Notes under the pieces: model-generated
Seen by the model: only the letters and a program-made list of their open reading frames with translations
The model's database searches: none
Told to the model about the DNA's origin: nothing
Made by a program: the position numbers and the translations under genes
From: Salmonella phage vB_SenS-3
Sequence record: OR896822.1
Length of the DNA: 64,000 bases
Strand: one strand, 5' to 3'
Part shown: positions 37,203 to 40,503 of the stretch, piece after piece
Position numbering within the stretch: the stretch's first letter is position 1
Layout: the number at the start of each line of letters is the position of its first letter

Positions 37203-37970
37203 TTATTCAGCAGCCGCAGCTTTTGCATCCAGTTTAGCACGCTTAGCGGCACCATCATAGTCCTTAGCAACCAGACCACGACGAGACAGCATAGATTTAA
37301 CACCGCGCTCAGACTTACCAGTTTTCTCAGCGATCTCAGCAACAGTCATGTTAGCCAGATCCAGACCTTCTAACAGATCTTCACGAGTTTTAGCACTTGA
37401 AGTTTCCTGTACCGGCATAGCAGCGATACGACCTTCACGAAGCAGGCTCAGAGCTTTACCACGGATCTGCTTAATATTGCGACCGAAGTGAGCAGCGATA
37501 GCTTCAATAGTAGCACCAGCAACAACCTGATTAACGAAATCAGTTTCTTCGTCAGGAGTGAAGGAACGAACAGCAGCAGTTTTTTCAGTTGGCTTAACAG
37601 AAGCAGTCATTTCCAGACTCAGGATCTTACCCTGTACCTGCTTAGCACCGAACTGACCACCAGCTACAGCAGCAGCGATTTCAGCGTAAGTATACTGACC
37701 AGCATGAGCGTTCAGGAAATCAACCAGTTCAGCTTCCTGTTCAGGAGTCCACGGGGATTTCTGTACTTCGTTAGCTTTCTGTACTTCGAAACCTTCTTTA
37801 CGCAGCTTAGAGCCAACAGAGCGAGCGGTAACGTCTTTACCAGTCTCGGTAGCCAGTTCAGCAGCGATAGCAGCTACTTGTTCTTGAGAGATTACAGCAA
37901 CACCCAGAGCAGTGGCTTTTGCTTTCAGAGACTCGGTTACACCTTCTACGTTCCAGTTCAGTTTAGACAT
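37203..37970 (-). CDS. DNA-binding protein with four HTH-like repeats (possibly D5-like)
   Basis: 255 aa; repeated units AEIAAAVAGGQFGAKQVQGKILSL / IEAIAAHFGRNIKQIRGKALSL / VAEIAEKTGKSERGVKSMLSRRGL; optimised codon usage; GGAG RBS. Confidence 0.5.
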   Translation of the reverse strand: MSKLNWNVEGVTESLKAKATALGVAVISQEQVAAIAAELATETGKDVTARSVGSKLRKEGFEVQKANEVQKSPWTPEQEAELVDFLNAHAGQYTYAEIAAAVAGGQFGAKQVQGKILSLEMTASVKPTEKTAAVRSFTPDEETDFVNQVVAGATIEAIAAHFGRNIKQIRGKALSLLREGRIAAMPVQETSSAKTREDLLEGLDLANMTVAEIAEKTGKSERGVKSMLSRRGLVAKDYDGAAKRAKLDAKAAAAE

Positions 37971-38745
37971 TATTATTTTTCTCCAATAGTTCTTTAATCG
38001 ACAGGATTTCTATCCCATTCGTTTCGGCTTTCTTATAAGATGAGGAAGAACGTTTTGATTCATCCTCACAGATTAGGTATTTGACGTCTTTGGTAACGGA
38101 CTTCTTGACCGTATATCCTAGACTTTCTAAATAGTTTGTTGCATCCGTTCGATTTGCAAAATCTTGCAAAGATCCGGTAATACAGATCGTGATTCCATTT
38201 GGCTGGGCAACTAAATCATCCGTAATGATGATATCAGCTTTAGTACCTCGAATACCAGTTGAGAATTTCCATGGTAATTCAATAACATCCTTGCCTTGTG
38301 GGGAATTTAGCCAGGTTTTGTAATTTTCTCCAGCCTTGCCGTCAGCCTTCACATCGTGGAAGCTAGTGCAATTTTGGGACAGTTTCTTTGCTGCAACCTC
38401 TCCAATAAGAGGAATTCCTAAAGAACCGAGAACCGAACCAAAGTCAATGTCTCCGCGAACCTTAGTATTTAACTCGCTAATCAACTTAGCGGCAACCTTG
38501 CTACCAACAGCTCCGACCAAATCTTCTTCGGTCAGGTAAAACAGTTCTGAGATCTTAGTCAGTTCCAGCTTCTCAATAGTTTTCGGGCCAAAGCCCTTTA
38601 ACTTCATTTTTGTGCAGAAGTTCTCGATTAACTTACTTGATTGCGCTGGACAGTTGGACTTATTCCTACAGAATAATTGCCCGTTGACAAGATCTAGCTT
38701 AGAACCACAAGAGGGACATTGTGTTGGAATTTCGATTTTCATCAA
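37963..38745 (-). CDS. NAD-dependent DNA ligase, C-terminal part (zinc finger, HhH, BRCT; subunit B)
   Basis: 260 aa beginning with zinc finger CPSCGSKLDLVNGQLFCRNKSNCPAQ, then HhH-like GFGPKTIEKL; own promoter upstream. Confidence 0.75.
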   Translation of the reverse strand: MMKIEIPTQCPSCGSKLDLVNGQLFCRNKSNCPAQSSKLIENFCTKMKLKGFGPKTIEKLELTKISELFYLTEEDLVGAVGSKVAAKLISELNTKVRGDIDFGSVLGSLGIPLIGEVAAKKLSQNCTSFHDVKADGKAGENYKTWLNSPQGKDVIELPWKFSTGIRGTKADIIITDDLVAQPNGITICITGSLQDFANRTDATNYLESLGYTVKKSVTKDVKYLICEDESKRSSSSYKKAETNGIEILSIKELLEKNNNV

Positions 38746-38772
38746 ATTTCTTCCTTATCAATTTATATAAAT

Positions 38773-38801
38773 ATTATAGCAAGTATTTAAGCATTTAGCA
38801 A
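38773..38801 (-). promoter_or_regulatory. T5 early-type promoter for ligase B part
   Basis: Minus strand TTGCTA-17-TATAAT followed by ATTTATATAAATTGATAAGGAAG and ATG. Confidence 0.6.
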
Positions 38802-38865
38802 CTACAATTTTAACTAACTTTGCTTACCCTCGCCATAACTTTCTATCCCTCAACTGAATGATAAT

Positions 38866-38894
38866 AGTATATACCTAAGCGGCGAAAATGTCAA
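38866..38894 (-). promoter_or_regulatory. second sigma70 promoter between ligase parts
   Basis: Minus strand TTGACA-17-TATACT. Confidence 0.45.
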
Positions 38895-38944
38895 TAACCA
38901 CTTTATAATTCCGACATGGTAAACGGGTAGCAAAGGGTTACGAA

Positions 38945-39919
38945 TTAGTCGTATACTCGCTCTACTATACAAGGGATTACACCACCAGCACGAATCACTC
39001 GAATCTGGCAACCGATCTCTAAATCGAGAGCGTTAATATAATCAACGTTATTAAGAGTTGCTTTAACGATTGTGGCATCATCAATAATCACCGGCTCGAA
39101 ATAACCAACTGGAGTTACTTTACCAGAAGCCCCTACTTGCCATTCAACTTTAACAAGTGTGGTAATTTCGCCTTCTTCATCCTCTTTAATAGCAAATGCA
39201 CCGCGAGGAAATTTATTAGTCCAACCTTCACGGAAGAATTTGTTGTTATCATTAATACGAACAACTTTACCATCCGTCGGAATCCACTTAAAGAAGGAAC
39301 GAACATTAACAACTGTCAAGAAGTTCTCATTCTCTAGCCAAAGCATATCTTTTAAATAGGCTTCTGTAATACCGACTGTTTCCGCTGAACACTGGATACC
39401 ATATGCAACGAAGATTAAACCACCTTCACCAATACGTTGCATGAAATCATCACTATCTTTCAGGTTAATAGCACCAGAAGCATAGTTACGTTTGTTCTCT
39501 ACTTCTTTAGTAATGAGAACTTCACCAGTGATTTGAGTTGGTACTTTTTGGGAAATAGTTTTGGGGATGTTCAGCATTTTAACATTATGCGTTACATCAT
39601 TCCCTAGAATACCGTTACCACGAGTTAACGCTTGAACAAACTCACCATTAATATATAATAGAGAAATCGCACAACCATCTAACTTATCAGTTTCAACCTG
39701 ACCAAGTGGGTTGAATGGAGCTTTATCACCACGATCGTAATAGACTTTCTGCAAAGAATACATACGATACAAATGAGGGATATCACCTTTCGGTCCGATT
39801 TCTTCCTCTAGTGGGAATCTTTTAATCAGACGATCATATTCTTCATCGGAAATAAGACTCATTCCCTGGTAGTACGCTTCTTGACAACGTTTAATAAAGT
39901 CTTTTACATTATTCATCAT
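38945..39919 (-). CDS. NAD-dependent DNA ligase, N-terminal part (adenylation + OB domains; subunit A)
   Basis: 324 aa; adenylation active-site motif KLDG (DKLDGCAISLLYING); ends exactly after the OB-fold region, where the zinc finger would follow. Confidence 0.8.
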   Translation of the reverse strand: MMNNVKDFIKRCQEAYYQGMSLISDEEYDRLIKRFPLEEEIGPKGDIPHLYRMYSLQKVYYDRGDKAPFNPLGQVETDKLDGCAISLLYINGEFVQALTRGNGILGNDVTHNVKMLNIPKTISQKVPTQITGEVLITKEVENKRNYASGAINLKDSDDFMQRIGEGGLIFVAYGIQCSAETVGITEAYLKDMLWLENENFLTVVNVRSFFKWIPTDGKVVRINDNNKFFREGWTNKFPRGAFAIKEDEEGEITTLVKVEWQVGASGKVTPVGYFEPVIIDDATIVKATLNNVDYINALDLEIGCQIRVIRAGGVIPCIVERVYD

Positions 39920-40109
39920 CTGCGATTTCCATTTTGAGTTCTTTATTATACTGAGCAGCCATACCAGCTAAATCAGCAGCTTCTTTTAACCACGCATCTT
40001 TGTACGCTTTCTGGTTTGGAGTGCCAGTATTGTCCTGATAATTGATCTTTGCTATGGAAAGCAAATTAAGTTTTGCTTGAATCTTTGGAAGTGTTATTGT
40101 CATTGCCAT
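39909..40109 (-). CDS. small hypothetical protein
   Basis: Start placed at ATG 40109 (MAMTITLPK) with GAGAGGA RBS directly after a T5-type promoter; ORF track start is 40127. Confidence 0.35.
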   Translation of the reverse strand: MAMTITLPKIQAKLNLLSIAKINYQDNTGTPNQKAYKDAWLKEAADLAGMAAQYNKELKMEIADDE

Positions 40110-40138
40110 AATTGATCCTCTCATCAATTTATATAAAT

Positions 40139-40167
40139 ATTATATATGAAAACTGAGTCGAAAGCAA
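40139..40167 (-). promoter_or_regulatory. T5 early-type promoter
   Basis: Minus strand TTGCTT-17-TATAAT followed by ATTTATATAAATTGATGAGAGG. Confidence 0.6.
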
Positions 40168-40194
40168 GTACATTTATAAAGAAAAAGCCAAGAA

Positions 40195-40503
40195 CTAGGC
40201 ATTCTTGGCTTTGAGTTCTTCAGCTCGTTTCTGTACTTCATGCAAGACCTCGGATTCACTGAGGATTTGCGTAAAAGCGTAGAATAGCTGTGACGTAGTT
40301 TCTAGGGTATAAGGAAAAGAGAAGCCGGATTTCGTTGGAAACCACTCTCCAGTAATATCTTGGAGCCAGTAACGAATTCCCATGTATAGATTCCCACGAA
40401 ATTCAGATACGGTTAGTCTTACTTGTTCTCCCTCCTTCTCCCAAAGCATGATGGACTGGTCGTCAACGTGTCCTTCATAGTTTTGATTTACCTGATCGCT
40501 CAT
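40195..40503 (-). CDS. small protein, possibly PC4-like ssDNA-binding fold
   Basis: 102 aa; segment VRLTVSEFRGNLYMGIRYW resembles the PC4/YdbC-type motif (vs...EFkGk.yidiReyw); from memory, unverified. Confidence 0.4.
   Translation of the reverse strand: MSDQVNQNYEGHVDDQSIMLWEKEGEQVRLTVSEFRGNLYMGIRYWLQDITGEWFPTKSGFSFPYTLETTSQLFYAFTQILSESEVLHEVQKRAEELKAKNA

What the first reader, a model, noticed from the sequence alone, without database searches (positions are those of the whole stretch)
37963..39919. NAD-dependent DNA ligase split into two separately promoted genes
ORF 38945..39919 carries the adenylation (KLDG) and OB domains and stops exactly at the domain boundary. ORF 37963..38745 begins with the zinc finger and continues with HhH/BRCT-like regions. 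They are separated by about 200 nt of non-coding DNA containing two minus-strand promoters (TTGACA-17-TATACT and TTGCTA-17-TATAAT), so the two halves are made as separate polypeptides. I recall split ligase genes (subunits A and B) being annotated in T5, but the arrangement is unusual and the spacer could be an insertion scar (e.g. lost homing element).
Basis: partly seen in the sequence, partly recalled or inferred. Interest (0 to 1): 0.5.

Follow-up and report, generated by a model that had tools for sequence, protein, structure and literature searches.

The report
T5-type two-subunit NAD-dependent DNA ligase
This is the already known split DNA ligase of T5-like phages, made as a catalytic half (LigA) and a DNA-binding half (LigB) from two adjacent genes separated by a short promoter-bearing spacer; it is real but ordinary for this phage family.

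Summary
The window is a T5-like phage, 100% identical here to Salmonella phages S147 and vaffelhjerte. ORF 38945..39919(-) encodes domain Ia, the adenylation domain (KLDG, K79) and the OB fold. ORF 37963..38742/38745(-) encodes the Zn finger, HhH and BRCT domains. The break maps to the OB|Zn linker of E. coli LigA (about residues 393-400). The 199-nt spacer carries two sigma-70 promoters that the T5 record annotates as P-K 28b and P-K 28a.

The split is already known. T5 ligA/ligB have been annotated as subunits A and B for years. PDB entries 9hu3/9i5i hold both chains of the Providencia phage orthologue, about 60-65% identical by eye from the printed alignments.

New detail from this work:
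- All 85 related loci examined, down to 38% identity, break at the same place and none is fused.
- A promoter just upstream of ligB is conserved family-wide.
- The spacer is more conserved than third codon positions of the flanking genes.
- The gap is an insertion hot spot: a GIY-YIG endonuclease in Salmonella phage SP3, and DprA-like and radical-SAM genes elsewhere.

Intein, intron, bypass and pseudogene readings are excluded. A "lost homing element" scar is not supported as the origin of the split. Novelty: already known. Interest: low.

The parts
38945..39919 (-). [quoted passage not shown] It ends at the OB|Zn linker.
   Evidence: ORF. Pfam PF01653 and PF03120. 96% identical to T5 AAU05253. 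Aligns end to end with PDB 9hu3_A (E=1e-106), and residues 215-321 align to E. coli LigA 284-390.
38746..38944 (-). 199-nt non-coding spacer between ligA and ligB (202 nt if ligB starts at the ATG). About the first 35 nt are variable. The remaining roughly 160 nt are almost invariant among T5-like phages.
   Evidence: The gap is exactly 199 nt in all T5, Epseptimavirus and Klebsiella-clade loci. Mean pairwise identity is 98.7%, against 87.7% and 93.1% at third codon positions of the flanking genes. No Rfam match. RNA fold z-score -0.69. No terminator.
38866..38894 (-). Upstream promoter TTGACA-17-TATACT, equivalent to T5 promoter P-K 28b.
   Evidence: 11/12 consensus match. Annotated in the T5 record. 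Aligned and conserved in the Klebsiella, Proteus and L070 relatives.
38773..38801 (-). Downstream promoter TTGCTA-17-TATAAT with an extended -10 TG, equivalent to T5 promoter P-K 28a. Its -10 hexamer ends 27 nt before the ligB TTG.
   Evidence: A promoter at this position is found in 40 of 55 distinct gaps across the family.
38750..38756 (-). Shine-Dalgarno-like AAGGAAG in front of ligB.
   Evidence: Read from the sequence. Conserved in the alignment.
37963..38745 (-). ligB: NAD-dependent DNA ligase subunit B, comprising a C4 zinc finger, HhH region and BRCT domain. 260 aa from the TTG at 38745; more probably 259 aa from the ATG at 38742.
   Evidence: ORF. Pfam BRCT. Alignment to E. coli LigA 402-529 and 585-666, and to PDB 9hu3_B (E=9e-80). 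96% identical to T5 AAU05254.
37203..37970 (-). Downstream gene D5 (DNA-binding protein / putative transcription factor). Its ATG overlaps the end of ligB by 8 nt, so it is probably co-transcribed and translationally coupled with ligB from the spacer promoters.
   Evidence: ORF. Annotations. The ligB-D5 adjacency is kept in the Proteus and Vibrio relatives.

Best explanation
This is the T5-type heterodimeric NAD+-dependent DNA ligase.

An ancestral single-chain LigA was cut once, in an ancestor of the Demerecviridae, in the short linker between the OB fold and the zinc finger. LigA (Ia + adenylation + OB) carries the chemistry: reaction with NAD+, formation of lysyl-AMP on K79, and nick adenylation and sealing. 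LigB (Zn + HhH + BRCT) supplies the DNA-clamping and nick-binding half. The two proteins associate non-covalently to rebuild the ring around nicked DNA that single-chain LigA forms.

The spacer is not a remnant to be spliced or translated. It is a functional intergenic region with tandem sigma-70 early promoters (T5 P-K 28b and 28a). These start a transcription unit with ligB, D5 and probably the replication genes downstream.

Shown here: gene structure, domain content, break point, conservation of the split and of the promoter, and purifying selection on the spacer. Shown by others: existence of an A+B structure (the PDB deposit).

Inferred: division of labour between the subunits, taken from fragment studies of bacterial LigA recalled from my own knowledge. 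Promoter activity in this particular phage is also inferred.
For: - Identity with known annotated genes: 100% DNA identity to phages S147 and vaffelhjerte, whose records name subunits A and B. 96% protein identity to T5 ligA/ligB. T5 ligA/ligB are cited as AAU05253/AAU05254 in PMC3632103.
- Domain content and break point.
- Solved two-chain structure 9hu3/9i5i ('DNA ligase (NAD(+))' plus 'DNA ligase subunit B'), whose chain B matches Providencia phages PSTCR5 and PR1 at 100%.
- The same break point, same gene order and no fusion in all 85 loci examined, down to 38% LigB identity.
- Residues corresponding to the E. coli NAD+-recognition residues Y22/D32/Y35/D36 are present in domain Ia (Y16, D25, Y28, D29).
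- A promoter upstream of ligB is conserved: 40 of 55 distinct gaps score at least 10/12, and the mean is 9.9 against 7.2 in dinucleotide shuffles. The tandem layout can be aligned in distant genera.
- The spacer is more conserved than synonymous sites of the flanking genes.
- Both genes are under purifying selection: codon positions 1 and 2 are 98-99.6% identical, against 88-93% at position 3.
Against: - No biochemical data for this phage's enzyme, and no published paper on the heterodimer, was found in the searchable library.
- The subunit interface and the need for LigB in nick sealing are inferred, not shown here.
- The promoter count in the local scan is not above chance on its own.
- Some distant loci have only 9/12 or weaker promoter matches (L038, L064, L070).
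- No terminator separates ligA from ligB, so the two genes are not fully independent transcription units.
Confidence: 0.9

Rival explanations
1. The spacer is the scar of a lost mobile element, such as a homing endonuclease gene, whose insertion split an intact ligase gene.
For: The gap is clearly a landing site. Salmonella phage SP3 and vB_Sen_SG_WM_RUS_R2 carry a 218-aa GIY-YIG endonuclease ORF that starts inside the last 23 nt of ligA. The last roughly 190 nt of SP3 ligA are heavily recoded, as expected next to a homing endonuclease. Other relatives carry DprA-like, radical-SAM, crAss001_48-like and unknown ORFs in the gap.
Against: The split is family-wide and always at the same residue, whereas the endonuclease is present in only 3 records of the phage collection; for scale, 456 records matched the ligase region by DNA. 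The endonuclease sits upstream of an intact, nearly identical promoter block, so it is a recent arrival in a pre-existing gap. The shortest gaps (55-90 nt) hold only a promoter and a ribosome-binding site. The spacer in this window is under purifying selection and is not decaying. An ancient mobile-element origin cannot be excluded, but it leaves no trace here.
Confidence: 0.07
2. The two ORFs are joined into one protein by an intein, split inteins, an intron, or translational bypass or frameshift.
For: None found. This is only the general precedent of interrupted phage genes and 'fractured genes' with split inteins (PMC2677866, listed).
Against: - LigA ends, and LigB begins, within a few residues of the bacterial OB|Zn junction, leaving no room for intein halves.
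- The ORFs are in different frames here, and the frame relation varies among relatives.
- Gap length ranges from 55 to 1374 nt, and some gaps hold whole genes.
- No intron or other Rfam family matches, even at E<=10, and there is no significant RNA structure.
- The PDB entry has two separate chains.
Confidence: 0.01
3. The halves work independently. LigA alone would be a minimal ligase, and LigB a separate DNA-binding or BRCT scaffold protein with another role, for example together with D5 in replication or transcription.
For: ligB has its own promoters and is translationally coupled to D5, not to ligA. Mosaic phages exist in which LigA is 83% and LigB 95% identical to the window's proteins (L026), so the genes can be exchanged separately.
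Against: ligA and ligB are adjacent and in the same order in all 85 loci. Both chains were deposited together in 9hu3/9i5i as subunits. From my own knowledge of E. coli and Bacillus LigA fragment studies, Ia-NTase-OB fragments adenylate themselves but seal nicks poorly without the HhH domain.
Confidence: 0.05
4. A broken, decaying ligase gene (pseudogene) or an assembly error.
For: None.
Against: The arrangement is found in 429 phage records that cover at least 80% of the region and in 339 stretches of viral contigs that encode a LigB relative. There is strong purifying selection on both ORFs. Catalytic and zinc-binding residues are invariant.
Confidence: 0.005

Closest known systems
Bacteriophage T5 ligA/ligB (T5p114/T5p115; AAU05253/AAU05254), NAD-dependent DNA ligase subunits A and B
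   Same: Orthologous at 96% protein identity. Same 199-nt spacer, with the two promoters that the T5 record names P-K 28b and P-K 28a. Same neighbours: a PC4-like gene upstream, and D5 and the dnaB-like helicase downstream.
   Different: Only point differences. The window belongs to the Epseptimavirus S147 lineage rather than Tequintavirus. The T5 record does not annotate the 72-aa ORF that overlaps the ligA start here.
PDB 9hu3 / 9i5i: two-chain NAD+ DNA ligase of Providencia phage PSTCR5 / vB_PreS_PR1
   Same: Both chains align end to end with the window's LigA (E=1e-106) and LigB (E=9e-80). The N- and C-termini fall at the same break point.
   Different: Roughly 60-65% identity, estimated by eye from the printed alignments. 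No accompanying paper was found in the searchable library, so I cannot say what the depositors showed beyond the existence of a two-chain structure.
Single-chain bacterial LigA (E. coli 2owo; Thermus filiformis 1v9p)
   Same: Same domain order Ia-NTase-OB-Zn-HhH-BRCT, the KxDG lysine, four zinc cysteines and domain Ia NAD+-contact residues.
   Different: Cut into two polypeptides between about E. coli residues 393 and 400. The N-terminal part is shorter: K79 here against K115 in E. coli. No bacterial genome with the T5-type split was found among the species representatives (185,579 per the tool's description). The scan used two peptide patterns, so its sensitivity is limited.
Single-chain phage LigA (Acinetobacter phage Ab1-TPeters, 613 aa; Vibrio phage vB_pir03, 645 aa)
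   Same: The closest non-Demerecviridae phage homologues, at 28-31% identity to LigA.
   Different: Not split. This shows the split is specific to the T5-like lineage rather than general to phage LigA.
Free-standing homing endonuclease genes in intergenic gaps of lytic phages (the situation in Salmonella phage SP3)
   Same: In SP3 a GIY-YIG ORF occupies the ligA-ligB gap next to a recoded ligA 3' end.
   Different: The window has no such gene, and its spacer shows no remnant of one.

Membership tests
NAD+-dependent DNA ligase (LigA family) | Nucleotidyltransferase domain with the motif I lysine (KxDG) | tested here: met
   PF01653, E=1.3e-23. KLDG at residues 79-82 aligns with E. coli K115-LDG and is invariant in the family.
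NAD+-dependent DNA ligase (LigA family) | OB-fold domain following the NTase domain | tested here: met
   PF03120, E=9.4e-22. Residues 215-321 align to E. coli 284-390.
NAD+-dependent DNA ligase (LigA family) | N-terminal domain Ia with the NMN-contact residues (E. coli Y22, H23, D32, Y35, D36) that specify NAD+ | tested here: inconclusive
   The motif AYYxG..ISDEEYDRL aligns with E. coli/Tfi ..YY/YH....PDAEYDRL. Y16, Y17, Y28 and D29 are invariant in the family. The local alignment scores are below significance, and which residues are essential is taken from my own knowledge (Sriskanda & Shuman 2002, cited within PMC9503650).
NAD+-dependent DNA ligase (LigA family) | C4 zinc finger, HhH domain and BRCT domain C-terminal to the OB fold | tested here: met
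   Present, but on the second polypeptide. BRCT PF00533, E=7.5e-9. The Zn and HhH Pfam hits are below their cut-offs, but LigB residues 4-123 align to E. coli 402-529 and residues 170-254 to 585-666. C10, C13, C26 and C32 are invariant.
NAD+-dependent DNA ligase (LigA family) | All domains on a single polypeptide | tested here: not met
   Stop codon after the OB fold, a 199-nt gap and a different frame.
NAD+-dependent DNA ligase (LigA family) | NAD+-dependent nick-sealing activity | not testable with these tools
   Needs purified LigA and LigB and a nicked-DNA assay.
T5-type two-subunit ligase (LigA/LigB of Demerecviridae) | Break at the OB|Zn linker, with ligA immediately upstream of ligB on the same strand | tested here: met
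   Same break and same order in all 85 loci. The alignments show a shared C-terminus for LigA and a shared N-terminus for LigB.
T5-type two-subunit ligase (LigA/LigB of Demerecviridae) | Orthology to T5 ligA/ligB and to the solved A/B pair | tested here: met
   96% identity to T5. E=1e-106 and 9e-80 to 9hu3 chains A and B.
T5-type two-subunit ligase (LigA/LigB of Demerecviridae) | Physical association of the two subunits | not testable with these tools
   Only indirect evidence: both orthologous chains are in the same PDB entries.
Intein / split-intein 'fractured gene' | Intein sequence blocks at the junction, in frame with the host protein | tested here: not met
   No extra residues at the LigA C-terminus or the LigB N-terminus relative to bacterial LigA. 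The ORFs are in different frames.
Self-splicing intron (group I/II) | Match to intron covariance models, or a stable conserved RNA structure in the intervening sequence | tested here: not met
   No intron hit in Rfam even at E<=10. Fold z-score -0.69. Promoters and, in relatives, whole genes lie in the gap.

The most novel reading that the evidence does not exclude
The split may be an adaptive regulatory device rather than a neutral accident. A strong early promoter sits at the domain boundary in essentially every member of the family. The phage may therefore make the catalytic half (LigA) and the DNA-clamping half (LigB, co-expressed with the DNA-binding protein D5) in different amounts or at different times. 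Ligase activity could then be tuned, for example so that the site-specific single-strand nicks typical of T5 genomes are not resealed late in infection. The nearly invariant 160-nt spacer could also act as a recombination joint that lets the ligA and ligB modules be exchanged between phages.
Probability: 0.1. Interest if true: 0.5.

Novelty: already known. Interest (0 to 1): 0.15.

Why it matters
It matters little as a discovery. The split ligase of T5-like phages is annotated in hundreds of genomes and an orthologue has a deposited structure.

The added value is descriptive:
- The break point is invariant across cultured and uncultured relatives.
- It always comes with a promoter for the downstream half.
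- The spacer is under selection.
- The gap is a recurrent insertion site for accessory genes, including a homing endonuclease that public annotation mislabels.

A natural, stable two-piece LigA is a useful reference for protein-engineering work on split ligases, and for asking why T5-like phages keep the halves apart. No new kind of system is involved.

Tried and rejected
- Intron: Rfam scan of 37700-40300 at E<=10 gave only four chance-level hits and none to an intron. Folding of the spacer gave z=-0.69.
- Intein or split intein: rejected from end-to-end alignments with bacterial LigA and 9hu3.
- Homing-endonuclease scar: I looked at all gaps longer than 250 nt among the 85 loci. Only SP3-type phages carry an endonuclease (GIY-YIG). 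The Vibrio and metagenomic gaps carry unrelated genes. The window's spacer shows no remnant.
- Regulatory repeat: a possible direct repeat between the two promoters (GAGGGATAGAAAGTT and GAGGGTAAGCAAAGTT) is only weakly kept in the Klebsiella clade and not in Proteus phage. I make no claim for it.
- Bacterial counterpart: a scan of genome contigs found only a phage-like 3-kb MAG contig and a normal 696-aa LigA.
- Literature: eight successful searches found no paper on the biochemistry or structure of the two-subunit enzyme. A ninth attempt was rejected for a term that was too short. Gentz & Bujard 1985, the source of the T5 promoter names, is not held in the library.
- Heavy searches not run: I did not run structure prediction or the large protein-database searches. 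A solved orthologue and hundreds of annotated relatives already answer the question.
Full report
**What is there**

On the minus strand, ORF 38945..39919 encodes a 324-aa protein. After a TAA stop and 199 nt, ORF 37963..38745 encodes a 260-aa protein.

- The first protein matches the Pfam NAD-dependent ligase adenylation domain (E=1.3e-23) and the ligase OB domain (E=9.4e-22).
- The second matches BRCT (E=7.5e-9). It also has sub-threshold hits to HhH and to the ligase C4 zinc finger.
- Against solved structures, K79 of KLDG aligns with E. coli LigA K115, and LigA residues 215-321 align with E. coli 284-390.
- LigB residues 4-123 align with E. coli 402-529, so C10 corresponds to C408. Residues 170-254 align with the BRCT region 585-666.

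The break therefore lies in the few residues that link the OB fold to the zinc finger, and almost nothing is missing. The N-terminus keeps a short domain Ia with the motif AYYxG..ISDEEYDRL. This aligns with the E. coli and Thermus NAD+-contact residues.

**The spacer**

The promoter scan finds TTGACA-17-TATACT (38894-38866, 11/12) and TTGCTA-17-TATAAT with a TG extension (38801-38773, 10/12), both on the minus strand. They are the two best-scoring matches in the 2.6-kb region scanned. The total number of promoter-like sites in that region is no higher than in shuffled sequence.

No terminator-like site lies in the gap. No RNA family matches even at E<=10. The spacer RNA folds no better than shuffled sequence, with z=-0.69.

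The TTG at 38745 is immediately followed by an ATG at 38742. That ATG is the probable start:
- The Klebsiella-phage clade has no TTG at that position.
- Other records annotate the ATG.
- The PDB orthologue starts MKIQ.

**Where it comes from and what is already known**

The 2.3-kb region is 100% identical to Salmonella phages S147, vaffelhjerte and PMBT36 (Demerecviridae, Epseptimavirus). In the phage collection, 429 records cover at least 80% of it. [quoted passage not shown]

The T5 record AY692264 annotates ligA (AAU05253) and ligB (AAU05254). It also marks the two spacer promoters as 'P-K 28b' and 'P-K 28a'. From my own knowledge, those names come from the functional promoter cloning of Gentz and Bujard (1985). 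That paper is cited in PMC7472727, but I could not read it.

Papers mention the two subunits in passing (PMC3632103; PMC4319617).

PDB entries 9hu3 and 9i5i contain a 339-aa 'DNA ligase (NAD(+))' chain and a 248-aa 'DNA ligase subunit B' chain. These align end to end with the window's LigA and LigB (E=1e-106 and 9e-80). Chain B is 100% identical to Providencia phages PSTCR5 and vB_PreS_PR1.

The finding is therefore a correct re-discovery of a known arrangement.

**How conserved is the split?**

I collected 85 loci: five annotated phages plus 80 viral contigs found with a LigB alignment. I located both genes in each.

- In every locus ligA lies directly upstream of ligB on the same strand.
- LigA stops within 0-2 residues of the same alignment position in nearly all loci. 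The exceptions run 5, 9 or 15 residues further.
- LigB always starts at MK/QI..P..CP.CG.
- No locus has the two fused, down to 38% LigB identity.
- The frame relation between the genes varies. The gap ranges from 55 to 1374 nt. It is exactly 199 nt in every locus of the T5/Epseptimavirus group except SP3 (791 nt), and in the Klebsiella-phage clade at 72% identity.

Outside this lineage the nearest phage homologues are single-chain: Acinetobacter phage Ab1-TPeters at 613 aa and Vibrio phage vB_pir03 at 645 aa.

A pattern scan of one genome per bacterial and archaeal species found no bacterial split. It returned only a 3-kb MAG contig that looks like phage DNA and an ordinary 696-aa LigA.

The split is thus a single old event that marks T5-like phages and their uncultured relatives.

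**What the gap contains**

In 40 of 55 distinct gaps, a sigma-70-type promoter scoring at least 10/12 has its -10 hexamer ending 15-45 nt before the ligB start. The mean best score is 9.9, against 7.2 in dinucleotide shuffles. The shortest gaps hold essentially a promoter and a ribosome-binding site.

The tandem two-promoter layout can be aligned between the window, T5, the Klebsiella clade, Proteus phage 2 and a 44%-identity contig.

Among 27 distinct T5-like sequences:
- the spacer has 98.7% mean pairwise identity, about 99.5% over its last 160 nt;
- third codon positions are 87.7% identical in the ligA tail and 93.1% in the ligB head;
- first and second codon positions are 98-99.6% identical.

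So both genes and the spacer are under purifying selection.

The ligB stop overlaps the start of gene D5 by 8 nt. The ligB-D5 adjacency is kept in distant genera. The spacer promoters therefore most likely drive ligB, D5 and probably the helicase and primase genes beyond.

**The 'scar' idea**

Longer gaps contain unrelated cargo:
- a DprA-like gene plus two small ORFs in Thalassavirus-type Vibrio phages;
- a radical-SAM protein in a metagenomic contig;
- a crAss001_48-like protein in another locus.

One T5-like phage, Salmonella phage SP3, has a 791-nt gap; a relative, vB_Sen_SG_WM_RUS_R2, carries the same ORF. The gap holds a 218-aa GIY-YIG endonuclease ORF that begins 23 nt before the ligA stop. 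It sits upstream of an intact promoter block. It is also flanked by a heavily recoded last 190 nt of ligA. This is the usual picture for a recently arrived free-standing homing endonuclease.

So the gap is a landing site. However, the endonuclease is rare and recent, whereas the split is ancient. The window's own spacer shows no remnant of such a gene.

**Mechanism**

The best-supported account has three parts.
- LigA performs NAD+-dependent self-adenylation and the nick chemistry.
- LigB provides the Zn/HhH DNA clamp and the BRCT domain.
- The two associate non-covalently to encircle nicked DNA as single-chain LigA does.

The division of labour follows from fragment studies of bacterial LigA, which I recall from my own knowledge and have not tested here. 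The association is suggested by the joint PDB deposit. Joining of the halves by intein, intron, frameshift or bypass is excluded by the alignments, the frames, the variable gap and the embedded promoters. Decay or an assembly artefact is excluded by conservation and selection.

**Verdict**

The arrangement is already known. Interest is low. The family-wide promoter at the break point and the insertion hot spot are modest additions.

Noticed in passing
L030 4187-4843 (= Salmonella phage SP3 MG387042, 64007-64660); L092: A 218-aa GIY-YIG endonuclease ORF sits in the ligA-ligB gap of phage SP3; a 90%-identical copy is in vB_Sen_SG_WM_RUS_R2. The last roughly 190 nt of ligA next to it are strongly recoded. 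In the SP3 GenBank record the product names are shifted by one gene: the endonuclease is labelled 'ligase subunit A', the true LigA is 'hypothetical protein', and D5 is 'portal vertex protein'.
   Followed up: partly
window 39909-40127 (-): A 72-aa ORF overlaps the ligA start by 11 nt (ATGATGA). It is annotated as a hypothetical protein in vaffelhjerte and PMBT36. The T5 record does not annotate it and places a 'putative promoter' in the equivalent stretch instead.
   Followed up: no
window 38816-38851 (-): Two adjacent copies of a 15-16-nt motif lie between the two spacer promoters: GAGGGATAGAAAGTT and GAGGGTAAGCAAAGTT. They are invariant in T5-like phages, only weakly kept in the Klebsiella clade, and absent in Proteus phage. 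The second copy overlaps a tiny ORF, ATGGCGAGGGTAAGCAAAGTTAGTTAA (8 codons). Function unknown; possibly a protein-binding site in the leader.
   Followed up: partly
window 37963-37970 (-): The ligB stop and the D5 start overlap by 8 nt (ATGTCTAA), which suggests translational coupling of ligB and the D5 DNA-binding protein.
   Followed up: no
L026 (IMGVR_UViG_2974499565; probably a TrudiGerster-like phage): A mosaic pair: LigA is only 83% identical to the window's protein, while LigB is 95% identical and the spacer is the standard 199 nt. This suggests recombination at or near the conserved spacer.
   Followed up: no
L087 2106-4090 (Serratia phage 2050HW NC_048668): A jumbo phage whose NAD-dependent ligase is annotated in three pieces (65 aa, 59 aa and 535 aa), broken near the N-terminus at a different place from the T5 split. 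It could be a separate domain Ia, a second kind of split, or sequencing errors.
   Followed up: no
L040 564-1568; L004 4127-4687; L033 4281-4844: Accessory genes are inserted between ligA and ligB in relatives: a 334-aa radical-SAM protein in a metagenomic contig, and a DprA-like protein (phrog_768) in Vibrio phages of the Achelous/Pontus type.
   Followed up: partly
window 40184-40212 (-): A terminator-like hairpin (12-bp stem followed by a T run) spans the stop codon of the PC4-like gene 40195-40503. It probably ends the upstream transcription unit before the ligA unit.
   Followed up: no
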